Sequence record: MZ234035.1
Strand: one strand, 5' to 3'
DNA length: 64,000 nt
Source of the DNA: Escherichia phage vB_EcoM-G3F7
Below the pieces are notes generated by a model. It was not told the origin of the DNA. It searched no databases and was given only the letters and a program-made list of their open reading frames with translations. The translations under genes and the position numbers were made by a program. Position 1 is the first letter of the stretch. Each line of letters begins with the position of its first letter. Below, piece by piece: positions 1,059-57,445 of the stretch.

Positions 1059-1373
1059 ATGGAGGTAATGATGTTATACTCAAAGGCTCGTGAAATTTAC
1101 GAAACTAAAATTAAAGAAGCAGTATTTAAGTTCGCAACGACAATGCGATGGACAAATGACTGGGAGTATTCAAAAAATCATAAGAAGCCCATGGTGACAA
1201 GAAAGGCTCATATGTTAGTGTTAATAGACCGTGAGCAGATTAAAGCCCGAGAAGCCCTCCAGAATCATAAAAAGGCTGCCTTTGAATGGTTTATGGATAA
1301 CACTGCTCCTGAGACTAAGAAAGCGGTAAGCGCATGGTTCAGTGGAAAAAATTGTGAAAGAAGTTTCTTTTAG
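1059..1373 (+). CDS. hypothetical protein
   Basis: 104-aa ORF; GGAGG RBS precedes internal ATG at 1071, so true start may be 1071. Confidence 0.45.
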   Translation: MEVMMLYSKAREIYETKIKEAVFKFATTMRWTNDWEYSKNHKKPMVTRKAHMLVLIDREQIKAREALQNHKKAAFEWFMDNTAPETKKAVSAWFSGKNCERSFF

Positions 1374-1375
1374 TG

Positions 1376-1405
1376 GTTTACAAGACTGTTCCTCTGTGGT
1401 ACTAT
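1376..1405 (+). promoter_or_regulatory. T4-type early promoter
   Basis: GTTTAC, 18-nt spacer with TGG, TACTAT. Confidence 0.6.
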
Positions 1406-1433
1406 ACAACTATCAACTACGGAGGAACACAAA

Positions 1434-1961
1434 ATGAACGCTAAAGATATTTTCAACCTGGTAAATTACAACGATGGTAAATTTAAATCTGAAGCACAAA
1501 GTAAGTTCTTTAATGACATCTCAATCGAAGGTGAAATCACGGTTGACGGAGGACAAATTTACAAATCTCGTTGGAATTGGATCGTTATTATCGATGAGAT
1601 TGGTATTGTAGAAATTTACAAGAATACGAATAAAAATCGTACATTACACTGGTCTCGTGATACTAACGAACAGTACAAAAAGGATAAAGCATCTAAATTA
1701 TCTCGTGTAACTCAAGAAGATATTGAGTTCATCAAGAAAGATATTTTGATGTATGATAACTTAATTGCTGAAGAGCAAGCTGTTATTGATAAATTTGATG
1801 AGATTAAAGCTTCTCGTGAAATTCCTGATTTTATGAAAGAATCAGTAAATGAACGATACACTCTCATTTCAGAGCGTATTGAAACTTACAAAAAGCAAAG
1901 AGCTGAACGCCAGAATACTCTTCGGAAGTTTGAAGAACGGTTAAAGACGGTACTCGCATAA
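1434..1961 (+). CDS. hypothetical early protein
   Basis: 175-aa ORF immediately downstream of early promoter 1376-1405 and GGAGG RBS. Confidence 0.55.
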   Translation: MNAKDIFNLVNYNDGKFKSEAQSKFFNDISIEGEITVDGGQIYKSRWNWIVIIDEIGIVEIYKNTNKNRTLHWSRDTNEQYKKDKASKLSRVTQEDIEFIKKDILMYDNLIAEEQAVIDKFDEIKASREIPDFMKESVNERYTLISERIETYKKQRAERQNTLRKFEERLKTVLA

Positions 1962-1962
1962 C

Positions 1963-1987
1963 CGCTTTATACCAAGGATGGTATAAT
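1963..1987 (+). promoter_or_regulatory. MotA-box-like middle promoter
   Basis: CGCTTTA box, 11-12-nt spacer, TATAAT. Confidence 0.4.
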
Positions 1988-2016
1988 GGTTCTAAGCCCT
2001 TTTAATTGAGATTATT

Positions 2017-2424
2017 ATGAAACAGTTGATAATTAAAAGATTGAATTTATTGATATGTTGTTTATGTATAGCAATTGCATATGGTTATTACGCAATTAAT
2101 GATTATATGCATTATAAAGATTATGATGTTACTGTAGTTAATACCATTACAGGAACACAAGGAAAAGGGTCTAGTTTATCGTTTATTGCCGTATATGAAC
2201 TCAAAGATGGTTATAGATTTAGTGAATATATTTCCCCAGAGATGTATTCATCAATAGAAAAAGGTGATAATATTACTGTAAGTTTACGTCCTTTCGACGT
2301 AAAACAGACATTGTTTGATAATATTGTTTGGTTCTTTGGAATGGTATTAGTTCAATCTGTGTGTGGTGCTTATATAGTCTGTTCCATCTTATTCTGTATA
2401 TTTAGTAAAATTGAAATTGAGTGA
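2017..2424 (+). CDS. hypothetical membrane protein
   Basis: 135-aa ORF with hydrophobic Cys-rich segments at both ends. Confidence 0.5.
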   Translation: MKQLIIKRLNLLICCLCIAIAYGYYAINDYMHYKDYDVTVVNTITGTQGKGSSLSFIAVYELKDGYRFSEYISPEMYSSIEKGDNITVSLRPFDVKQTLFDNIVWFFGMVLVQSVCGAYIVCSILFCIFSKIEIE

Positions 2425-2431
2425 GGAAAAT

Positions 2432-3319
2432 ATGTCAGTAGTAATTAATAATGTCAATGCAGTAATTAAATCTTTAGTTAATAAAAAATTAAATGAATGG
2501 ACTGTACTTCGTCGTGGAGAGCCAGATAAATTTTTTCATAGATTTAACCCAACTTTGGATTTGAATGTTATTGACAGAGATGTTCATGCTGAAATTTTAG
2601 ATAAATTTAAAGTTGATATTGGGTTTGGGTTAGATAAACATTTGCAACGAACAAACGGATCTGGAATGGGTTTATCTAATCGCATCATGAAAGCCCTTAA
2701 TAAAATTGGAGCGTTGTCTCGTATTAATGCGAGTGAAATCCTTCGCAATTATAATAAAGGATATGACCTTTATGGTCGACTAATGCCGAAATTATCATTT
2801 GACCAAATGATTGCGGATTTGTGGGAAAATCAACGACGATTATTAGCATTAGGCGCTCGATTAGCTAAAGGTCTAGATAAACAAATGATTTTTAAGACCA
2901 ATAATACAGAAGACCTTAAATGCTTTAAATTTAGTACTCGTGGAGATGATTATTACATCAGAGCTCGCTCTACAGATTATGTTAATATGGGGCATCATCT
3001 CTGTTTAGCTTTTGAAGTTTTAAAAGAAGCCGGAACATTAGAATATGTGTCTGGTGCTAAATGTCCGATTGGTTCAAATTGCATTTTAATTTATCGCCCA
3101 GATGAATCCAGTTCAACTAAATTACCTACAAAACCTGTACCAGTTCGCAGTAATGAAAAACATTCTGAACAAATTGCTTATTTTAATAAGCAGATTGAAG
3201 AGCTAAATATTTCTATTCAGCAATATGATGATGAAATTTTCAGACTATCTGGATTGAGTAGTAAAGCTAAATCTGAGCGTGAAAAATTAATTAAAATCGT
3301 TGATTTACTTAAATCTTAA
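2432..3319 (+). CDS. hypothetical protein with C-terminal coiled coil (paralog A)
   Basis: ATG at 2432 after GAGGA RBS; C-terminal heptad-rich tail. Confidence 0.55.
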   Translation: MSVVINNVNAVIKSLVNKKLNEWTVLRRGEPDKFFHRFNPTLDLNVIDRDVHAEILDKFKVDIGFGLDKHLQRTNGSGMGLSNRIMKALNKIGALSRINASEILRNYNKGYDLYGRLMPKLSFDQMIADLWENQRRLLALGARLAKGLDKQMIFKTNNTEDLKCFKFSTRGDDYYIRARSTDYVNMGHHLCLAFEVLKEAGTLEYVSGAKCPIGSNCILIYRPDESSSTKLPTKPVPVRSNEKHSEQIAYFNKQIEELNISIQQYDDEIFRLSGLSSKAKSEREKLIKIVDLLKS

Positions 3320-3327
3320 GGAACACC

Positions 3328-4356
3328 ATGAAAACTCGTTCTCAAATTGAAGATATGGTTCGTAATGCCAGCTATACTCGTGATGTTATGACATTTTTGT
3401 GTGAAAATAATTTAGACCCTGATAAAGTTAATCGTGTTATTCATCACTTTAAGTATACGAATAGCAGTGAATGGGTGCGTAATTTTAGTAAAGCAGGGTA
3501 TATTACACAAATGACTGCTCGTGAACAGCTCACCGATTTCTGTAAAACTATTGATTATAAAAATCCTTTGATTGTTCAAGGCGTTGGTCAAAGTAAGGTC
3601 GATTTATCATCTGGATTTTTCAATCCAAATCATTATCGTATTGAATGGAGATTTATTGCTCTATTCCGTAAACAATTAAAGCAAATTTTGTCTACTGCTA
3701 GTCGATTAAAAGGCTCTGATATTAACTTAAAGAACCTGAAATTTGATGGTTATACTCTTCAGATGGAAGTAAGACCGTTAAAAGAAAATAATAGAACTGC
3801 ACGAATTAGCTTTAAGCCTAATACTAAAAATTCTCTTTCAATTTGTGAATGTCTTAAATCACAGCTGACAGAAGCATTTAAGTATATGGATGTTGTTGCT
3901 GCTGTTCAATCTAAGATTTTACCTCGTTTTGAGCGAAATTGGGAACATACAACAACATATGAACTTGATATGATCGTTTCATTTAAATATGAATTTTTGA
4001 GAAAGGATGAAATTGTTCAAGAGAAAAAGCAGGAAGTGCAAGATACCTTAAATTTAAATTTATCCAATTACTTATCAAACGATCCTAAATTTTGGATGTA
4101 TAGCTCAAGCAATATAGATGCATGTAAACTTAATAAAGTGAGTTTTCTTCCTACTGAAAATTCAAATTTTAAACCTGTAGAAAAATGGCACGCTGACGCG
4201 ATTGAGAAGTCTCTTAAGGCAGTAGATGATGAACTCGTTAAAGCGACCAATGAAGTGCTAGAAGCTGAAAAGGCGTTAGAACAAGCTCAGTCAAGGGTTC
4301 AAAATCTGACAAAGCAACGTTCTAAACTGAACAATGCACTAAATGCACTGAACTAG
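3328..4356 (+). CDS. hypothetical protein with C-terminal coiled coil (paralog B)
   Basis: 342-aa ORF; tail ...LEAEKALEQAQSRVQNLTKQRSKLNNALNALN; core resembles next two ORFs. Confidence 0.6.
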   Translation: MKTRSQIEDMVRNASYTRDVMTFLCENNLDPDKVNRVIHHFKYTNSSEWVRNFSKAGYITQMTAREQLTDFCKTIDYKNPLIVQGVGQSKVDLSSGFFNPNHYRIEWRFIALFRKQLKQILSTASRLKGSDINLKNLKFDGYTLQMEVRPLKENNRTARISFKPNTKNSLSICECLKSQLTEAFKYMDVVAAVQSKILPRFERNWEHTTTYELDMIVSFKYEFLRKDEIVQEKKQEVQDTLNLNLSNYLSNDPKFWMYSSSNIDACKLNKVSFLPTENSNFKPVEKWHADAIEKSLKAVDDELVKATNEVLEAEKALEQAQSRVQNLTKQRSKLNNALNALN

Positions 4357-24621: not shown

Positions 24622-27318
24622 ATGAAAGAATTTTATATCTCTATTGAAACAGTCGGAAATAACATCGTTGAACGTTATATTGATGAAAACGGAAAGGAAC
24701 GTACTCGTGAAGTAGAATATCTTCCGACTATGTTTAGGCATTGTAAGGAAGAGTCAAAGTACAAAGACATCTATGGTAAAAACTGCGCTCCTCAAAAATT
24801 TCCATCAATGAAAGATGCTCGAGATTGGATGAAACGAATGGAAGACATCGGTCTCGAAGCTCTCGGTATGAACGATTTTAAACTCGCTTATATCAGTGAT
24901 ACATATGGTTCAGAAATTGTTTATGACCGAAAATTTGTTCGTGTAGCTAACTGTGACATTGAGGTTACTGGTGATAAATTTCCTGACCCAATGAAAGCTG
25001 AATATGAAATTGATGCTATCACTCATTATGATTCAATTGACGATCGTTTTTACGTCTTTGATTTGTTGAATTCAATGTACGGTTCAGTATCAAAATGGGA
25101 TGCAAAGTTAGCTGCTAAGCTTGACTGTGAAGGTGGTGATGAAGTTCCTCAAGAAATTCTTGACCGAGTAATTTATATGCCATTCGATAATGAGCGTGAT
25201 ATGCTCATGGAATATATCAATCTTTGGGAACAGAAACGACCTGCTATTTTTACTGGTTGGAATATTGAGGGATTTGACGTTCCGTATATCATGAATCGCG
25301 TTAAAATGGTTCTCGGTGAACGCAGTATGAAACGTTTCTCTCCAATCGGTCGAGTAAAATCTAAACTAATTCAAAATGTGTACGGTAGCAAAGAAATTTA
25401 TTCTATTGATGGCGTATCTATTCTTGATTATTTAGATTTGTATAAGAAATTCGCATTTACTAATTTGCCGTCATTCTCTTTGGAATCAGTTGCTCAACAT
25501 GAAACCAAAAAAGGTAAATTACCATACGACGGTCCTATTAATAAACTTCGTGAGACTAATCATCAACGATACATTAGTTATAACATCATTGACGTAGAAT
25601 CAGTTCAAGCAATTGATAAAATTCGCGGGTTTATCGATCTAGTTTTAAGTATGTCTTATTATGCTAAAATGCCTTTTTCTGGTGTAATGAGTCCTATTAA
25701 AACTTGGGATGCTATTATTTTTAACTCATTGAAAGGTGAACATAAGGTTATTCCTCAACAGGGTTCGCACGTTAAACAGAGTTTTCCGGGTGCATTTGTG
25801 TTTGAACCTAAACCAATTGCTCGTCGATATATTATGAGTTTTGACTTGACGTCTCTGTATCCGAGCATTATTCGTCAGGTTAACATTAGTCCTGAAACTA
25901 TTCGTGGTCAGTTTAAAGTTCATCCAATTCATGAATATATCGCAGGAACAGCTCCTAAACCAAGTGATGAATATTCTTGTTCTCCGAATGGATGGATGTA
26001 TGATAAGCATCAAGAAGGTATCATTCCAAAGGAAATCGCTAAAGTATTTTTCCAGCGTAAAGATTGGAAAAAGAAAATGTTCGCTGAAGAAATGAATGCC
26101 GAAGCTATTAAAAAGATTATTATGAAAGGCGCAGGGTCTTGTTCAACTAAACCAGAAGTTGAACGATATGTTAAGTTCAGTGATGATTTCTTAAATGAAC
26201 TATCGAATTACACCGAATCCGTTCTCAATAGTCTGATTGAGGAATGTGAAAAAGCAGCTACACTTGCTAACACAAATCAGCTGAACCGTAAAATTCTTAT
26301 TAACAGTCTTTATGGTGCTCTTGGTAATATTCATTTCCGTTACTATGATTTGCGAAATGCTACTGCTATCACAATTTTCGGTCAAGTCGGTATTCAGTGG
26401 ATTGCTCGTAAAATTAATGAATATCTAAATAAAGTATGTGGAACTGATGGTGAAGATTTCATTGCCGCGGGTGATACTGATTCGGTATATGTTTGTGTAG
26501 ATAAAGTAATTGAAAAAGTAGGTCTTGACCGCTTTAAAGAACAAAATGATTTAGTTGAATTCATGAATCAGTTTGGTAAGAAAAAGATGGAACCTATGAT
26601 TGATGTTGCATATCGTGAGTTATGTGATTATATGAATAATCGCGAGCATCTGATGCATATGGACCGTGAAGCTATTTCTTGCCCTCCACTTGGTTCAAAG
26701 GGCGTTGGTGGATTTTGGAAAGCGAAAAAGCGTTATGCTCTGAACGTTTATGATATGGAAGATAAACGATTTGCTGAACCGCATCTAAAAATCATGGGTA
26801 TGGAAACTCAACAGAGTTCAACACCAAAAGCAGTGCAAGAAGCTCTCGAAGAAAGTATTCGTCGTATTCTTCAGGAAGGTGAAGAGTCTGTCCAAGAATA
26901 TTACAAAAACTTCGAGAAAGAATATCGTCAGCTTGACTATAAAGTTATTGCTGAAGTAAAAACTGCGAACGATATAGCGAAATATGATGATAAAGGTTGG
27001 CCAGGATTTAAATGTCCGTTCCATATTCGCGGTGTGCTAACTTATCGTCGAGCTGTTAGTGGTCTGGGTGTAGCTCCAATTTTGGATGGAAATAAAGTAA
27101 TGGTTCTTCCATTGCGTGAAGGAAATCCATTTGGTGACAAGTGCATTGCTTGGCCGTCGGGCACAGAACTTCCAAAAGAAATTCGTTCTGATGTACTATC
27201 TTGGATTGACTACTCAACTTTGTTCCAAAAATCGTTTGTTAAACCGCTTGCGGGCATGTGTGAATCGGCTGGTATGGACTATGAAGAAAAAGCTTCGTTA
27301 GACTTCCTGTTTGGCTGA
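24622..27318 (+). CDS. 43: DNA polymerase gp43 (family B)
   Basis: 898 aa; exonuclease DIE and polymerase DTDS motifs. Confidence 0.95.
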   Translation: MKEFYISIETVGNNIVERYIDENGKERTREVEYLPTMFRHCKEESKYKDIYGKNCAPQKFPSMKDARDWMKRMEDIGLEALGMNDFKLAYISDTYGSEIVYDRKFVRVANCDIEVTGDKFPDPMKAEYEIDAITHYDSIDDRFYVFDLLNSMYGSVSKWDAKLAAKLDCEGGDEVPQEILDRVIYMPFDNERDMLMEYINLWEQKRPAIFTGWNIEGFDVPYIMNRVKMVLGERSMKRFSPIGRVKSKLIQNVYGSKEIYSIDGVSILDYLDLYKKFAFTNLPSFSLESVAQHETKKGKLPYDGPINKLRETNHQRYISYNIIDVESVQAIDKIRGFIDLVLSMSYYAKMPFSGVMSPIKTWDAIIFNSLKGEHKVIPQQGSHVKQSFPGAFVFEPKPIARRYIMSFDLTSLYPSIIRQVNISPETIRGQFKVHPIHEYIAGTAPKPSDEYSCSPNGWMYDKHQEGIIPKEIAKVFFQRKDWKKKMFAEEMNAEAIKKIIMKGAGSCSTKPEVERYVKFSDDFLNELSNYTESVLNSLIEECEKAATLANTNQLNRKILINSLYGALGNIHFRYYDLRNATAITIFGQVGIQWIARKINEYLNKVCGTDGEDFIAAGDTDSVYVCVDKVIEKVGLDRFKEQNDLVEFMNQFGKKKMEPMIDVAYRELCDYMNNREHLMHMDREAISCPPLGSKGVGGFWKAKKRYALNVYDMEDKRFAEPHLKIMGMETQQSSTPKAVQEALEESIRRILQEGEESVQEYYKNFEKEYRQLDYKVIAEVKTANDIAKYDDKGWPGFKCPFHIRGVLTYRRAVSGLGVAPILDGNKVMVLPLREGNPFGDKCIAWPSGTELPKEIRSDVLSWIDYSTLFQKSFVKPLAGMCESAGMDYEEKASLDFLFG

Positions 27319-27330
27319 TAGAATAAATCT

Positions 27331-27355
27331 AGGGACCTCCGGGTCCCTTTTTCAT
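27331..27355 (+). terminator. intrinsic terminator after gene 43
   Basis: AGGGACC-TCCG-GGTCCCT followed by TTTTC. Confidence 0.7.
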
Positions 27356-27435
27356 ACAAGTAATATAAATCTATACTTAGGAAAAATAGATGATTCTAGG
27401 TCCTGTAAATTCATTAAAAATTTTTTCACAAAACT

Positions 27436-27465
27436 GTTTACAAGACTGTTCCTCTGTGGTACTAT
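27436..27465 (+). promoter_or_regulatory. T4-type early promoter (repeat cassette)
   Basis: GTTTACAAGACTGTTCCTCTGTGGTACTAT, near-identical to 1376-1405. Confidence 0.6.
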
Positions 27466-27499
27466 ACAATTATCAACTAATACGGATTTGGAGAATAAA

Positions 27500-27736
27500 A
27501 TGAAAATTGTTATGGGATGCTTAGCAGTTTGTTTAGTTGCATTAGCAGCAGTTCCATTTGTTAGTGTTGAAAATGATACTCAACCTGTGATTGAATCTAG
27601 CACCGTTATTCACACTAATGGTAAAATATCAGTTAAAATTGATGATAATCTTCATGTGAATACTAATGGAACGCTGGGTGTTCAATTAGGTAATATCTGT
27701 GTAAGCACTACTGGAGTAATTACTACTTGTATTTGA
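27500..27736 (+). CDS. hypothetical secreted protein
   Basis: 78 aa from ATG 27500; N-terminal signal-like hydrophobic segment; downstream of early promoter. Confidence 0.45.
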   Translation: MKIVMGCLAVCLVALAAVPFVSVENDTQPVIESSTVIHTNGKISVKIDDNLHVNTNGTLGVQLGNICVSTTGVITTCI

Positions 27737-27746
27737 GGAAATTATT

Positions 27747-28127
27747 ATGAAAATCGCTATTTTGGTTATTGCATTAGGTCTTACTGGTTGTGTAGCTCAA
27801 GGACCGGTAGTAAATCAGTCTGATGCAGGAAAAATTGTAAACTGTTCAAGCAAATTTTATAATCCTAATGTCAAGTGTTATAAAGAAGCTCCAAAGCAAA
27901 CAGTCGAACAAATGCAGGCGAATTTTGACGAAGCTATTCGTCCAGATGAATCTGCTCAAGCATATCGTAATTCTGATGTAATTACACGCGAAGAAAAAAT
28001 TGAAAACTACTGCGCCGAAATTTGGGCTAATTGGGCTAATAATTACCAATGGCGTACTGGTAAAAATGCTCCGATGGAGTATGTAGTGAATTCTTATAAT
28101 TCATGCGTAAAAAATTTGACTAAGTGA
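27747..28127 (+). CDS. hypothetical lipoprotein
   Basis: 126 aa; lipobox-like LTGC after hydrophobic leader. Confidence 0.5.
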   Translation: MKIAILVIALGLTGCVAQGPVVNQSDAGKIVNCSSKFYNPNVKCYKEAPKQTVEQMQANFDEAIRPDESAQAYRNSDVITREEKIENYCAEIWANWANNYQWRTGKNAPMEYVVNSYNSCVKNLTK

Positions 28128-28134
28128 GGAAAAC

Positions 28135-28386
28135 ATGGAAACTTTAGTAGCAGGTTCAATTTTTATGGTTTTAGTATCAGGCGTGTTGGCTATTATTATA
28201 TACATGCTTCCATGGTTTATCGCCTTGATGCGTGGGTCAAAATCGACAGTAGGAATCTTTTTCACATCTTTACTGTTTAACTGGTCAATTATTGGTTGGT
28301 TTATTACATTTATTTGGTCAATTGTAGGTGAAACTAAAAAGTCTGCGCAGCCAAATCAGGTAATTATCATCAGAGAGAAGGAATGA
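28135..28386 (+). CDS. imm: superinfection immunity membrane protein Imm
   Basis: 83 aa, two hydrophobic helices; matches T4 Imm as recalled. Confidence 0.85.
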   Translation: METLVAGSIFMVLVSGVLAIIIYMLPWFIALMRGSKSTVGIFFTSLLFNWSIIGWFITFIWSIVGETKKSAQPNQVIIIREKE

Positions 28387-28532
28387 AAAGCAAAATTATA
28401 GCAGTGTTGCTTTTAATCTTGATGGTTATAATAAGTATATACTATAGTGTAACGGTTCCTCTTATGATTCCAACTATTATTTTAGGTTGGAGTTTATTAC
28501 TGTTACAAATTAAATATGAATGCATCAATTGA
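28383..28532 (+). CDS. small hydrophobic protein
   Basis: 49-aa ORF; ATGA overlap with imm stop. Confidence 0.35.
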   Translation: MKSKIIAVLLLILMVIISIYYSVTVPLMIPTIILGWSLLLLQIKYECIN

Positions 28533-28539
28533 GGTTTAA

Positions 28540-29280
28540 ATGATTAACGATTATATGACAGTTGAAGAAATCCGTCTTGATTTGGGTCTTGCATTAAAGG
28601 AAAAAGATTTCGTAATTGATAAAACCGGGGTTAAAACTATTGAAATTATTGGTGCATCATTTGTAGCAGATGAACCTTTTATTTTTGGCGCTCTTAATGA
28701 TGAATACATTCAGCGTGAACTTGAATGGTATAAATCTAAGAGCTTGTTCGTTAAAGATATTCCAGGTGAAACACCGAAGATTTGGCAGCAGGTAGCATCT
28801 TCTAAAGGCGAAATTAACTCGAATTATGGTTGGGCTATCTGGTCAGAAGATAACTATGCTCAGTATGATATGTGTTTAGCTGAACTTGGTCAAAATCCTG
28901 ATTCTCGACGTGGTATCATGATTTATACTCGTCCATCCATGCAATTTGACTACAATAAAGATGGTATGTCAGATTTCATGTGTACGAATACAGTACAGTA
29001 CCTGATTCGTGATAAGAAAGTCAATGCAGTAGTAAGCATGCGCTCAAATGACGTGGTCTTCGGATTCCGTAATGATTATGCATGGCAAAAATACGTATTA
29101 GATAAATTAGTATCTGATTTGAATGCAGGCGATTCAACTCGTCAGTATAAAGCAGGTTCTATTATATGGAATGTTGGAAGTCTTCATGTATATTCTCGTC
29201 ATTTTTACTTGGTTGATCATTGGTGGAATACTGGCGAAACTCATATTGTGAAAAAAGATTATAACGGTGAGTGGAAATGA
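28540..29280 (+). CDS. 42: dCMP hydroxymethylase gp42
   Basis: 246 aa; thymidylate-synthase-like fold; matches T4 gp42 length. Confidence 0.9.
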   Translation: MINDYMTVEEIRLDLGLALKEKDFVIDKTGVKTIEIIGASFVADEPFIFGALNDEYIQRELEWYKSKSLFVKDIPGETPKIWQQVASSKGEINSNYGWAIWSEDNYAQYDMCLAELGQNPDSRRGIMIYTRPSMQFDYNKDGMSDFMCTNTVQYLIRDKKVNAVVSMRSNDVVFGFRNDYAWQKYVLDKLVSDLNAGDSTRQYKAGSIIWNVGSLHVYSRHFYLVDHWWNTGETHIVKKDYNGEWK

Positions 29281-30119
29281 TTCAATTCGTAATTCCAAGC
29301 TATCAACGCGTAGGGGCAGTTTCTGCCCTTGATATGTTTCCGACTGATTATGAACCACATATTGTAGTGCGTGAACACGAAGAAAAAGCTTATTATGATG
29401 CTTATGGGTCTAGAGCTAAAATTGTAACTATTCCTGATGATGTTAATGGAATTGCCGGTACTCGTAAAGCAATTACTGATATGTATGCAGGTCAACGAAT
29501 CTGGATGATTGATGATGATACTACTATTCGTATGAGTTCAATACGAAAGAGAGACGATAAACGGCGCGTAGATAAAATTAATCAATTAACTCGTGAACAG
29601 TTCTATGAATTAATTCAATACGTTGAGGATGCTATGGATTGCGGGTATTATCACGGTCATGCTCGTCTACCAATTTTTAAAATTACTTCATCTTGGGGTA
29701 ATTATCGTGAAAACTCATATGGATTCACGAATACATGGTATGACCTCGGAAAACTTACGACAGAACAAATTGGGTATGGAAAAATTGATTTATGTGAAGA
29801 TATGTACGCATTTCTCAATTTAATTAATCAAGGTTATCCGCATTTGGCCTTGTTCAAATATCTAGTTGTATCTGGAAAATCACACGCTCCCGGCGGGTGC
29901 AGTTCAATTCGTAGTAATTCTAAACATAATAGAGCGCTTGAACAAATCAATAGAGAGTTTCCAGAGCAAGCTCGTTGGAAAACTTCTAATATTGAAAAAC
30001 GAAAATCGTTGGGTGAAGAAGACGAGCCATTAAAGGTTCTTCGCATGTGTGTTTCTCGTAAAGAAAAATCAGAAGCATTTCATAAGTTTAATGCTATTCA
30101 TCCAATAGCAGTTGATTAA
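29277..30119 (+). CDS. putative GT-A glycosyltransferase at the beta-gt locus
   Basis: 280 aa from ATG 29277; DxD-like IWMIDDDTT motif; unlike T4 beta-gt sequence. Confidence 0.55.
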   Translation: MIQFVIPSYQRVGAVSALDMFPTDYEPHIVVREHEEKAYYDAYGSRAKIVTIPDDVNGIAGTRKAITDMYAGQRIWMIDDDTTIRMSSIRKRDDKRRVDKINQLTREQFYELIQYVEDAMDCGYYHGHARLPIFKITSSWGNYRENSYGFTNTWYDLGKLTTEQIGYGKIDLCEDMYAFLNLINQGYPHLALFKYLVVSGKSHAPGGCSSIRSNSKHNRALEQINREFPEQARWKTSNIEKRKSLGEEDEPLKVLRMCVSRKEKSEAFHKFNAIHPIAVD

Positions 30120-33710: not shown

Positions 33711-34004
33711 ATGAAAAAATTTATCTTTGCTACAATTTTTGCTTTAGCTTCTTGTGCTGCTCAGCCTGCTATGGCAGGTTATGATAAAGATTTGTGCGAA
33801 TGGTCTATGACTGCGGATCAGACTGAGGTTGAAACTCAAATTGAAGCAGATATTATGAATATCGTTGAGCGTGATCGTCCTGAAATGAAAGCTGAAGTGC
33901 AAAAACAGCTTAAGTCTGGTGGTGTAATGCAGTATAATTACGTTCTGTATTGTGATAAAAACTTTAATAATAAAAATATCATCGCTGAAGTGGTAGGTGA
34001 ATAA
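33711..34004 (+). CDS. sp: Spackle-like periplasmic protein
   Basis: 97 aa with N-terminal signal peptide; size and position match T4 sp. Confidence 0.6.
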   Translation: MKKFIFATIFALASCAAQPAMAGYDKDLCEWSMTADQTEVETQIEADIMNIVERDRPEMKAEVQKQLKSGGVMQYNYVLYCDKNFNNKNIIAEVVGE

Positions 34005-53720: not shown

Positions 53721-53750
53721 GTTTACATACCACAAGGACTGTGGTACTAT
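53721..53750 (+). promoter_or_regulatory. T4-type early promoter (repeat cassette)
   Basis: GTTTAC, 18-nt spacer with TGG, TACTAT. Confidence 0.6.
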
Positions 53751-53777
53751 ACAACTATCAGCTACGGAGGAGTAAAA

Positions 53778-54041: not shown

Positions 54042-54226
54042 GTTCATTATGGTGGTGTTTCGTTTGGTTAATTAGTATTCCATTAATTTGTTTAACATTT
54101 ACTTTTGTGATGAGGTTATTATGAAAATTTTGAATTCTGTGCTTATTGCTTGTGCGTGGTGGGTTGCGCAAGTTTCAGCAGTAGTAGTTGGTATTCACAT
54201 TTATTACGAATATTTTTAAAAAAGTT

Positions 54227-54256
54227 GTTTACAAGACTGTTCTTCCGTGGTATTAT
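54227..54256 (+). promoter_or_regulatory. T4-type early promoter (repeat cassette)
   Basis: GTTTACAAGACTGTTCTTCCGTGGTATTAT. Confidence 0.6.
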
Positions 54257-57346: not shown

Positions 57347-57366
57347 AAAAATTTTTTCACAAAACG

Positions 57367-57396
57367 GTTTACAACCAAAGCATACTGTGGTACTAT
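57367..57396 (+). promoter_or_regulatory. T4-type early promoter (repeat cassette)
   Basis: GTTTAC, 18-nt spacer with TGG, TACTAT. Confidence 0.6.
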
Positions 57397-57445
57397 ACAA
57401 CTATCAAATAAATGAACTGAAACAAACAACCCGGAGATACAAAAA

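What the first reader, a model, noticed from the sequence alone, without database searches (positions are those of the whole stretch)
27436..28532. Cluster of secreted and membrane small proteins around imm
After the gene 43 terminator and an early-promoter cassette come a 78-aa signal-peptide ORF, a 126-aa lipoprotein-like ORF (LTGC lipobox), Imm (83 aa) and a 49-aa hydrophobic ORF overlapping the imm stop. This is a compact envelope-targeted module consistent with superinfection exclusion; two members are not known T4 genes to my recollection.
Basis: partly seen in the sequence, partly recalled or inferred. Interest (0 to 1): 0.4.

Follow-up and report, generated by a model that had tools for sequence, protein, structure and literature searches.

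The report
T-even imm gene cluster, already catalogued
This is the known early gene cluster between the DNA polymerase and dCMP hydroxymethylase genes of a T4-like phage: four small envelope-directed proteins, of which only Imm has a demonstrated role (blocking superinfecting phage DNA), so it is ordinary but leaves three untested membrane or periplasmic proteins.

Summary
After the gene 43 terminator (27331-27348) and a T4-type early promoter (27437-27465) lie four tightly packed + strand ORFs: ORF78 (27500-27736), imm.1 (27747-28127), imm (28135-28386) and a 49-aa ORF (28383-28532).

The window is 100% identical here to sequenced Tequatrovirus phages. Each ORF belongs to an existing phage protein family (phrog_4189; phrog_1754/DUF5481; phrog_1039/PF14373; phrog_3610).

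- **ORF78** is missing from T4 through a clean 247-nt indel bounded by ATGAAAAT repeats. It occurs in 325 phage records.
- **The 49-aa ORF** is intact but unannotated in T4 RefSeq. RB51 and VR7 call it gp42.1. It is conserved in six Tevenvirinae genera, and its start always overlaps the upstream stop codon.

Sequence features support export of all four: a Sec-type signal (ORF78), an invariant lipobox (Imm.1), and two hydrophobic segments each (Imm, gp42.1).

Only Imm has a shown exclusion role. Imm.1 stays next to imm in six genera and moved with it beside spackle in RB69, so a shared function is plausible but inferred. gp42.1 is not tied to imm.

No fold or homology clue to mechanism was found. 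Verdict: already known genes, low novelty.

The parts
27331..27353 (+). Intrinsic terminator-like hairpin (AGGGACCTCCGGGTCCCT) plus T-run, just downstream of the gene 43 stop at 27318
   Evidence: 7 pairs, 5 GC, loop 4, T-run. Annotated as a terminator in the identical phage Lutter. Conserved in T4.
27437..27465 (+). T4-type early promoter (GTTTACA ... TGGTACTAT). The transcription start is inferred near 27472, about 28 nt upstream of the ORF78 ATG
   Evidence: A 44-nt copy 97.7% identical lies at 1376-1419, and related copies at 53739, 54226 and 57385 each precede an ORF. Annotated as a promoter in Lutter. Function is inferred, not shown.
27500..27736 (+). ORF78: an accessory small secreted protein. 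It has an N-terminal Sec-type signal (MK + 15-17 hydrophobic residues, ALA|A) and a mature part made of three hxTNGxhxVxh beta-hairpin repeats. The Cys67/Cys77 pair is nearly invariant. phrog_4189
   Evidence: E 4e-30; 325 phage records, 296 near full length; pN/pS 0.39; beta meander 34-77, pLDDT about 80-86. GGAG Shine-Dalgarno 9 nt upstream.
27500..27746 (+). A 247-nt segment present here but absent from T4. The indel is bounded by the direct repeat ATGAAAAT(T/C)G, which forms the start codons of ORF78 and imm.1
   Evidence: Pairwise alignment with T4. Metagenomic locus L008 has the same junction.
27747..28127 (+). imm.1: lipoprotein precursor (lipobox LTGC, Cys15, Val at +2) of the DUF5481 / phrog_1754 family. 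The model gives the C-terminal half as three helices, and the Cys89/Cys120 pair is conserved
   Evidence: PF17578, 235 bits; T4 imm.1; pN/pS 0.04. An early RNA and early protein in T4 (PMC9697503 supplement).
28135..28386 (+). imm: superinfection immunity protein, 83 aa, with two hydrophobic membrane segments
   Evidence: PF14373 at 58 bits. phrog_1039. 97.6% identical to T4 Imm. pN/pS 0.06.
28383..28532 (+). gp42.1: a 49-aa protein with two hydrophobic segments (likely an inner-membrane hairpin). Its start codon overlaps the imm stop codon (ATGA)
   Evidence: phrog_3610, E 1.5e-25. The identical protein P0001 carries a precomputed PF26865 hit. 750 phage records. Intact in all 15 Tequatrovirus loci examined, including T4. 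A 45-49 aa orthologue exists in six genera, with synonymous sites saturated (pS 0.6-1.0) against pN 0.2-0.36.
28406..28432 (+). Promoter-like site inside gp42.1 (TGCTTT ... TATAAT). It is probably the MotA-type middle promoter serving gene 42
   Evidence: Annotated as a promoter in the identical phage Lutter. Sequence. The MotA-box reading is my inference from the published consensus, not a test.

Best explanation
The segment is the conserved early transcription unit between gene 43 and gene 42 of a Tequatrovirus (T-even) phage.

Transcription and translation (inferred). Transcription that reads through or restarts after the gene 43 terminator begins at a T4-class early promoter near 27472. 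It runs through four closely spaced ORFs into gene 42. A second, middle-type promoter for gene 42 sits inside the last small ORF.

Destinations of the products (inferred from sequence).
- ORF78 is exported by a Sec signal peptide as a roughly 60-aa, beta-rich periplasmic protein, probably disulfide-bonded.
- Imm.1 is processed as a lipoprotein. It lacks Asp at +2, so it probably goes to the inner leaflet of the outer membrane.
- Imm inserts into the inner membrane with two hydrophobic segments.
- gp42.1 inserts into the inner membrane as a two-helix hairpin and is translated by coupling to the imm stop codon.

Functions.
- Shown, in T4, by others: Imm alone blocks DNA entry from superinfecting T-even phages. 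Imm.1 is made early in infection.
- Inferred here: Imm.1 is the likeliest co-worker of Imm in protecting the infected cell's envelope, because the pair stays together across genera and moved together next to spackle in RB69. I put this at about 0.3.
- gp42.1 has a role of its own that does not depend on Imm.
- ORF78 is a dispensable, strain-variable accessory gene that the T4 lineage lost by deletion between two ATGAAAAT start-codon repeats.
For: - **Identity.** The region is 100% identical to slur03, Lutter and other phages, and 464 phage records cover at least 80% of it.
- **Coding.** pN/pS is 0.04 (imm.1), 0.06 (imm), 0.39 (ORF78) and 0.31 (42.1). gp42.1 is conserved across genera.
- **Export signals.**. 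The lipobox is invariant in RB69, VR7, DK-13, MN04, Merlin, K65PH164, EcS1 and CIP9, all of which match phrog_1754.
- **imm.1-imm linkage.** Tequatrovirus, Mosigvirus RB69 (61.4 | imm.1 imm | sp), Moonvirus and Jiaodavirus, Gaprivervirus and Dhakavirus (imm, 42.1, imm.1).
- **Expression.** T4 imm.1 is early at both RNA and protein level (PMC9697503 supplement).
- **Imm and Spackle as the known exclusion pair.** PMC7677548.
- **Promoter family.**
- **No terminator** was found between ORF78 and gene 42.
Against: - No experiment links Imm.1, gp42.1 or ORF78 to exclusion, and none was found in the searchable literature.
- From my memory of Lu & Henning 1989, plasmid-borne imm alone confers exclusion, so Imm.1 is not strictly required.
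- Conserved adjacency in a compact phage genome may reflect shared timing or inheritance rather than shared function.
- Signal-peptide and lipoprotein calls rest on simple rules, not on SignalP or LipoP.
- Structure models were weak (pLDDT 70 and 57) and gave no functional analogue.
- Co-transcription and the promoter assignments are inferred from sequence only.
Confidence: 0.8

Rival explanations
1. One reading: all four ORFs form one dedicated superinfection-exclusion module that acts together at the envelope.
For: All four carry export or membrane signals and appear to be co-transcribed early. Imm is a proven exclusion protein. imm.1 and imm travel together and sit beside spackle in RB69. 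In Providencia phage PSTCR6, imm is followed by a spackle-like gene.
Against: gp42.1 is separated from imm in Mosigvirus and is coupled to a SIS sugar-isomerase gene there and in Kagamiyamavirus and Kanagawavirus. Moonvirus and Jiaodavirus keep imm.1-imm without 42.1. ORF78 is absent from T4, which excludes superinfecting phage normally, and from about a third of Tequatrovirus records. There is no PADLOC match.
Confidence: 0.12
2. Imm.1 and/or ORF78 act on a different envelope process: masking the OmpC/LPS receptors as T5 Llp masks FhuA, resisting lysis from without, signalling lysis inhibition, or countering a host envelope-based defence.
For: Both are predicted to face the periplasm and are made early. 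ORF78 varies by allele and in presence or absence, as accessory host-interaction genes often do. Imm and Sp mutants themselves affect lysis inhibition and lysis from without (PMC6832632).
Against: There is no homology or fold similarity to any such protein. The persistent linkage of imm.1 to imm favours a shared role.
Confidence: 0.2
3. The 49-aa ORF is not a gene. Its conservation reflects the gene 42 promoter and leader embedded in the imm-42 spacer, which is how the T4 reference treats the region.
For: It is unannotated in NC_000866. A promoter is annotated inside it in Lutter. Within Tequatrovirus the variable sites show little third-position bias (9/3/8 by codon position, pN/pS 0.31). The Shine-Dalgarno sequence is weak.
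Against: An ORF of 45-49 codons is kept in six genera at 53-67% nucleotide identity. Synonymous sites are saturated, while the motifs IYW, PxMIPT, GW and QxKYxCFN are preserved. This holds even where gene 42 is not downstream. The start overlaps the upstream stop in every case. It is intact in all 15 Tequatrovirus loci. Families phrog_3610 and PF26865 exist for it.
Confidence: 0.03
4. ORF78 is a decaying or non-functional ORF left over from recombination at a plastic junction.
For: Constraint is relaxed (pN/pS 0.39). It is missing from T4 and from L008. It is rearranged or truncated in CT01 and CrRp10. The signal region carries a 21-nt duplication in some phages.
Against: It is full length in 296 records. 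It has a good Shine-Dalgarno sequence. The C-terminal 22 residues and the Cys pair are nearly invariant, even in the 62%-identical dhabil form. pN/pS is still well below 1.
Confidence: 0.08

Closest known systems
T4 Imm (gene imm, UniProt P08986; Pfam PF14373 Imm_superinfect)
   Same: The 83-aa product at 28135-28386 is 97.6% identical to T4 Imm. It has the same length, the same position upstream of gene 42 and the same two hydrophobic segments.
   Different: Nothing material. There are two conservative substitutions relative to T4 (A45T and A64V).
T4 Imm.1 (NP_049661, UniProt P18057, 'uncharacterized 14.1 kDa protein in imm-gp43 intergenic region'; Pfam DUF5481)
   Same: The 126-aa ORF is the orthologue. 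It shares the position, the lipobox (LTGC against LAGC in T4) and near-identical sequence.
   Different: It is one residue longer at the C-terminus because of a 1-nt indel. Here it is preceded by ORF78, not directly by the promoter and Shine-Dalgarno sequence as in T4.
gp42.1 of RB51, VR7 and other T4-like phages (phrog_3610; PF26865)
   Same: It has the same size and position, the same overlap with the upstream stop codon, and the conserved motifs IY(W/Y), PxM(I/V)PT, GW and QxKYxC(F/I)N.
   Different: The Tequatrovirus form has two extra N-terminal residues. In other genera the upstream partner is a SIS isomerase rather than imm.
T4 Spackle (gp61.3), the periplasmic superinfection-exclusion protein that inhibits the gp5 lysozyme
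   Same: Functional analogy only, for ORF78. Both are small early proteins with a cleavable signal peptide, a periplasmic destination and a conserved Cys pair. Spackle lies next to imm in RB69 and PSTCR6 (PMC7677548).
   Different: There is no sequence or fold similarity. ORF78 is modelled as all-beta hairpin repeats. The window has its own spackle gene at about 33711-34004. No target is known for ORF78.
Phage exclusion lipoproteins such as T5 Llp (blocks FhuA) - recalled from memory
   Same: Functional analogy only, for Imm.1. It is an early phage-encoded lipoprotein predicted to sit in the envelope.
   Different: No homology was detected. No receptor link has been shown. Imm.1 is about twice the size.
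PeSL cassettes (promoter-early plus stem-loop) that flank variable ORFs in T4-type phages (PMC2839356, PMC4122927)
   Same: A stem-loop terminator followed by an early promoter sits immediately upstream of the variable ORF78. CT01 carries a partial duplication of the promoter at a rearranged junction.
   Different: The T4 / ORF78 indel endpoints lie at the two ATGAAAAT start codons, not inside the promoter or stem-loop, and only one cassette is present. PeSL-mediated exchange is therefore not needed to explain it.

Membership tests
Imm_superinfect (PF14373) / T4 Imm | Match to the family profile above the curated threshold | tested here: met
   58.2 bits against a cutoff of 27.9, E 7.7e-16. 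phrog_1039, E 2e-32.
Imm_superinfect (PF14373) / T4 Imm | Small protein with two hydrophobic membrane segments, orthologous in position to T4 imm | tested here: met
   Hydrophobic stretches at about 1-34 and 39-66. Same locus as in T4, 97.6% identity.
Imm_superinfect (PF14373) / T4 Imm | Blocks DNA entry by superinfecting T-even phage | not testable with these tools
   Known for T4 Imm from the literature (PMC7677548; Lu & Henning 1989 from memory). Inferred here from near-identity.
Imm.1 / DUF5481 (PF17578), phrog_1754 | Match to the family profile above the curated threshold | tested here: met
   235.1 bits against a cutoff of 27, E 1e-70. phrog_1754, E 9e-44.
Bacterial lipoprotein (signal peptidase II substrate) | Lipobox [LVI][ASTVI][GAS]C after a short basic n-region and an uncharged hydrophobic stretch, with the Cys at about 15-35 | tested here: met
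   MKIAILVIALGLTG|C, Cys15, no charged residue in the 10 residues before it. The lipobox is invariant in eight divergent family members. Weak LPAM_1 hit below threshold.
Bacterial lipoprotein (signal peptidase II substrate) | Actual lipid modification, and sorting to the outer membrane when residue +2 is not Asp | not testable with these tools
   Residue +2 is Val here and G, A or Q in homologues. Outer-membrane sorting is inferred from the E. coli +2 rule.
gp42.1 (phrog_3610 / PF26865) | Match to the family profile; 45-49 aa; conserved C-terminal motifs | tested here: met
   phrog_3610, E 1.5e-25. The identical cluster representative P0001 carries PF26865; that model is not in the local Pfam copy. 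Motifs aligned.
phrog_4189 (ORF78 family) | Match to the family profile | tested here: met
   E 4.2e-30, full length. The homologues are confined to Tequatrovirus-like phages, down to 62% identity.
Sec-type secreted protein (ORF78) | n-h-c signal peptide with a small-x-small cleavage site | tested here: inconclusive
   MK, then a hydrophobic stretch to about residue 20, with candidate sites ALA|A (16) and LAA|V (17). The N-terminal Cys residues are absent in the dhabil homologue, so it is not a lipoprotein as a family. No dedicated predictor was available, and a signal-anchor cannot be excluded.
Superinfection-exclusion system (as a functional class) for ORF78, Imm.1 and gp42.1 | Expression reduces productive infection or DNA entry by a second phage | not testable with these tools
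   Only contextual evidence exists: linkage of imm.1 to imm, and to sp in RB69. There are no PADLOC hits.
Triple beta-spiral fibre repeats (adenovirus fibre shaft type), considered for ORF78 | Significant profile or fold match to fibre-shaft repeats | tested here: not met
PeSL mobile regulatory cassette | Early promoter plus stem-loop flanking a variable ORF on both sides, with exchange endpoints inside the cassette | tested here: not met
   Only one cassette, upstream. The indel endpoints are at the ATG repeats. The CT01 rearrangement does involve the promoter.

The most novel reading that the evidence does not exclude
Imm does not work alone in nature. The outer-membrane lipoprotein Imm.1 and the inner-membrane protein Imm would form a two-membrane device that recognises or obstructs the incoming tail tube or DNA conduit of a superinfecting T-even phage. 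The strain-variable periplasmic ORF78 and the micro-protein gp42.1 would be add-ons that tune specificity or stability. This would give a handle on the still unknown mechanism of Imm.
Probability: 0.2. Interest if true: 0.5.

Novelty: already known. Interest (0 to 1): 0.2.

Why it matters
How Imm stops DNA entry has been unresolved since the late 1980s, whereas the partner system Spackle now has a structural explanation. If the tightly linked lipoprotein Imm.1 takes part, genetics and pull-downs on a two-gene unit would make the question directly testable. The survey also shows that the T4 reference annotation omits a small membrane-protein gene (42.1) conserved in six genera. Beyond that, the cluster is a routine, already sequenced and catalogued part of T-even genomes.

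Tried and rejected
1. **Remote homology.** Pfam, NCBIfam, PADLOC and the PDB sequence search gave nothing beyond the self-families. The weak hits (Av_adeno_fibre, DUF19, YidC, designed 'Cake' propellers) are below threshold or are repeat artefacts.
2. **Structure.**
   - Imm.1 had only near-identical sequences allowed as input (pLDDT 57; N-terminal 48 residues unmodelled). BFVD returned only its own family.
3. **Wider family searches.** The word-indexed searches found only close relatives: 9 for gp42.1, 15 for ORF78 and 3 for Imm.1. The exhaustive HMMER search with gp42.1 found three further 50%-identity clusters and one spurious repeat protein. All three families are therefore narrow.
4. **ORF78 as a lipoprotein** (a UniRef name for the 85-aa variant). 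Rejected for the family. The window form lacks a canonical lipobox, and the dhabil form has no N-terminal Cys. Only the variants carrying a 7-aa duplication gain an LAAC motif.
5. **The longer 141-aa TTG ORF (27311-27736).** Rejected as the real gene. Its extension spans the terminator and promoter and is not conserved in frame.
6. **The RefSeq product name 'iduronate sulfatase' for T4 imm.1**. It has no support from any profile.
7. **Rfam.** Nothing significant.
8. **Literature.** Searches for imm.1, DUF5481 and T4 small-ORF translation found no functional study. Miller et al. 2003 was not held.
Full report
**What is there.** The window is a Tequatrovirus (T-even) genome. Positions 27300-28560 are 100% identical to phages slur03, slur08, slur14, Lutter and others, and 464 phage records cover at least 80% of the stretch.

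Gene 43 (DNA polymerase, 24622-27318) ends just before a GC-rich hairpin with a T-run at 27331-27348. A promoter-like site follows at 27437-27465: TTTACA, a 17-nt spacer, then TACTAT preceded by TG. Its core is repeated almost exactly at 1376-1419 (44 nt, 97.7% identical). Similar copies lie at 53739, 54226 and 57385, always on the + strand and 40-60 nt upstream of an ATG. This is the long conserved consensus of T4 early promoters (my knowledge of that consensus). The identical phage Lutter is annotated with a terminator and promoters at these places.

Four ORFs follow, separated by 10 nt, 7 nt and a 4-nt overlap:
- ORF78, 27500-27736
- a 126-aa ORF, 27747-28127
- an 83-aa ORF, 28135-28386
- a 49-aa ORF, 28383-28532

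Gene 42 (dCMP hydroxymethylase) starts at 28540.

**Are they genes, and which genes.** Each product matches an existing phage protein family:
- ORF78: phrog_4189 (E 4e-30)
- 126-aa ORF: phrog_1754 (9e-44)
- 83-aa ORF: phrog_1039 'immunity to superinfection' (2e-32)
- 49-aa ORF: phrog_3610 (1.5e-25) (all)

Pfam places the 126-aa protein in DUF5481 (235 bits) and the 83-aa protein in Imm_superinfect (58 bits), both above threshold.

In T4 itself the order is 43, imm.1, imm, 42. The 126-aa ORF is imm.1, called 'uncharacterized 14.1 kDa protein in imm-Gp43 intergenic region' in one record. The 83-aa ORF is imm.

Among 15 Tequatrovirus loci, substitutions in imm.1 and imm fall overwhelmingly on third codon positions (pN/pS 0.04 and 0.06). 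ORF78 (0.39) and the 49-aa ORF (0.31) are less constrained.

**ORF78.**
- *Relation to T4.* Alignment with T4 shows that T4 lacks exactly 247 nt (27500-27746). The endpoints are the two start codons, ATGAAAATTG of ORF78 and ATGAAAATCG of imm.1. In T4, imm.1 therefore sits directly behind the Shine-Dalgarno sequence that serves ORF78 here. A metagenomic phage (L008) has the same junction. Deletion between the short repeats is the simplest reading, but the direction of the event is inferred.
- *Distribution.* tblastn finds ORF78 in 325 phage records, 296 of them near full length. By comparison, about 500 records carry a T4-type Imm at 95% identity or more. Roughly two thirds of Tequatroviruses therefore carry ORF78. 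Homologues do not extend beyond this group; the lowest identity is 62%, in phage dhabil.
- *Protein features.* It begins MK followed by about 17 hydrophobic residues, with ALA|A and LAA|V candidate cleavage sites. The N-terminal cysteines are not conserved, since dhabil has none, so the family is not a lipoprotein family. Variants with a 21-nt duplication gain an LAAC motif, which probably explains a UniRef 'Lipoprotein' name.
- *Mature part.* It consists of three hxTNGxhxVxh repeats. The model shows a six-strand beta meander (pLDDT about 80-86 over residues 34-77). The C-terminal 22 residues and the Cys67/Cys77 pair are nearly invariant.

**Imm.1.** The N-terminus MKIAILVIALGLTG|C is a textbook lipobox with Val at +2. 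I checked eight divergent family members:
- RB69 Imm.1
- the 146-175 aa lipoproteins of VR7, DK-13, MN04, Merlin, K65PH164/Roth66 and CIP9
- the 138-aa lipoprotein of EcS1

All match phrog_1754 (E 2e-15 to 2e-52). All keep L-x-G-C, and none has Asp at +2. By the E. coli +2 rule this predicts an outer-membrane lipoprotein facing the periplasm (inference).

A Cys pair (C89/C120 here) is conserved throughout the family. It lies in helices 2 and 3 of a low-confidence three-helix model (pLDDT 57).

In T4, imm.1 is classed as early at both RNA and protein level in a published omics data set, so it is expressed (PMC9697503 supplement). No solved structure or functional paper was found. The RefSeq label 'iduronate sulfatase' has no support.

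**The 49-aa ORF (gp42.1).**
- *In T4.* The ORF is intact in T4 DNA (MKSKIIAALLLILMIIISIYYSVTVPLMIPTIILGWSLLLLQVKYECIN) and in all 15 Tequatrovirus loci examined. NC_000866 does not annotate it. RB51 and VR7 call it gp42.1.
- *Distribution.* tblastn finds it in 750 phage records.
- *Other genera.* Orthologues of 45-47 aa occur in Gaprivervirus, Dhakavirus, Mosigvirus, Kagamiyamavirus and Kanagawavirus. Nucleotide identity is 53-67%. Synonymous sites are saturated (pS 0.6-1.0) against pN of 0.2-0.36. The motifs IY(W/Y), PxM(I/V)PT, (G/A)W and Qx(K/R)(Y/F)xC(F/I)N are preserved.
- *Why this is a gene.* The conservation holds even where gene 42 is not downstream. This rules out the idea that the region is conserved only as the gene 42 promoter and leader, although a promoter is annotated inside it in Lutter (28406-28432).
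- *Coupling.* In every genus the start codon overlaps the stop codon of the upstream gene (ATGA, or TGATG in EcS1). This indicates translational coupling.
- *Topology.* Two hydrophobic stretches flanked by Lys residues suggest an N-in/C-in hairpin in the inner membrane (inference).
- *Family size.* The family is narrow. An exhaustive HMMER scan found only three further 50%-identity clusters.

**Context across genera.**

| Genus (example) | Gene order |
|---|---|
| Tequatrovirus (this window) | 43 \| [ORF78] imm.1 imm 42.1 \| 42 |
| Moonvirus (Merlin) | 43 \| unrelated 79-aa ORF, imm.1, imm \| 42 |
| Jiaodavirus (K65PH164, Roth66) | 43 \| imm.1 imm \| 42 |
| Gaprivervirus, Dhakavirus | 43 \| imm 42.1 imm.1 |
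| Mosigvirus (RB69) | 61.4 \| imm.1 imm \| sp |
| Mosigvirus (SCS57) | 43 \| SIS isomerase, 42.1 \| nucleotidyltransferase |
| Kagamiyamavirus, Kanagawavirus | 43 \| imm.1-like, SIS isomerase, 42.1 |

Three conclusions follow.
- imm.1 stays adjacent or next-but-one to imm in six genera. In RB69 it moved with imm to sit beside spackle, the other known exclusion gene.
- gp42.1 is not tied to imm. In Mosigvirus SHSML-52-1 the two lie about 10 kb apart.
- In Providencia phage PSTCR6, imm is directly followed by a spackle-like gene.

**Mechanism.** The following is shown by others. Imm and Spackle together confer superinfection exclusion (PMC7677548). Imm appears to be a plasma-membrane protein whose action is poorly understood (PMC6832632). 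Plasmid-borne imm alone excludes T4 and limits DNA ejection (Lu & Henning 1989, from memory).

The following is inferred here.
- The four ORFs are an early co-transcribed unit, since no terminator was found between them.
- Their products go to the periplasm, the outer membrane and the inner membrane.
- Imm.1 is the most plausible helper of Imm (about 0.3).
- gp42.1 acts independently of Imm.
- ORF78 is a dispensable accessory gene.

No tool result points to a molecular target for any of the three.

**Novelty and verdict.** Everything here is already sequenced, annotated in hundreds of genomes and grouped into families. One of the two 'unknown' ORFs is absent from T4. The other is in T4 but left out of its reference annotation. 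The envelope-targeting observation holds. The 'exclusion module' interpretation is proven for one gene, plausible for a second and unsupported for the other two. Interest is low. The useful residue is a testable Imm.1-Imm hypothesis and the case for annotating 42.1 in T4.

Noticed in passing
L017 (Shigella phage CT01, OK018184.1) 1190-1720; corresponds to window 27300-27800: CT01 carries a mosaic junction. The order is: promoter, the first ~100 nt of imm.1, an internal ORF78 fragment with a 1-nt frameshift, a second copy of the 3' half of the early promoter, then a complete imm.1. It looks like a recombinant between a T4-type (ORF78-less) genome and an ORF78-type genome.
   Followed up: partly
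L009 and L016 (ORF78 homologues); proteins P0014 and P0020: Some phages carry a 21-nt tandem duplication in the ORF78 signal-peptide region (CLVALAA repeated). It lengthens the hydrophobic core and creates a canonical LAAC lipobox that the window version lacks. One such cluster is named 'Lipoprotein' by UniRef.
   Followed up: partly
L004 (T4 NC_000866.4) record 26636-27013: RefSeq names T4 imm.1 'iduronate sulfatase'. No profile search supports this, and it looks like an annotation error that has propagated.
   Followed up: yes
L004 (T4) record 26220-26372; window 28383-28532: The T4 reference genome has no feature in the 153-nt imm-42 spacer. The 49-codon 42.1 ORF is nevertheless intact there and conserved in six genera.
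   Followed up: yes
L019 (RB69 AY303349.1) locus 2071-3106: In RB69 the imm.1-imm pair is not beside gene 43. It lies between 61.4 and sp (spackle), so all the known or suspected exclusion genes are contiguous there.
   Followed up: partly
L011, L012 and L013, locus 1118-3626 in each: In Mosigvirus, Kagamiyamavirus and Kanagawavirus, gp42.1 is translationally coupled to a SIS-domain arabinose-5-phosphate-isomerase-like gene and is followed by a 561-aa nucleotidyltransferase-domain protein. This is presumably the arabinosyl-hmC DNA-modification cluster. The reason a membrane micro-protein sits there is unexplained.
   Followed up: no
window 1376-1419, 53739-53760, 54226-54252, 57347-57407: These are near-identical copies of the early-promoter core GTTTACA...TGGTACTATACAACTATCAAC. 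Each lies 40-60 nt upstream of a + strand ATG.
   Followed up: partly
window 29271-30119: The gene after 42 overlaps its end. In close relatives it is annotated as beta-glucosyl-HMC-alpha-glucosyltransferase (T2/T6 type), not the T4 beta-glucosyltransferase. It had no NCBIfam hit.
   Followed up: no
window 28118-28127 compared with T4: A 1-nt indel at the 3' end of imm.1 makes the T4 protein 125 aa rather than 126 aa. In T4 it also opens an in-frame upstream ATG that would extend imm to 94 codons.
   Followed up: no
window 33711-34004: The spackle (sp, 61.3) gene is on the same strand, 5.3 kb downstream of imm.
   Followed up: no
L018 (UNVERIFIED phage CJY920) locus 459-752 of the extracted region: imm.1 is truncated to 97 codons in this unverified record. 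It may be a sequencing error rather than a real loss.
   Followed up: no
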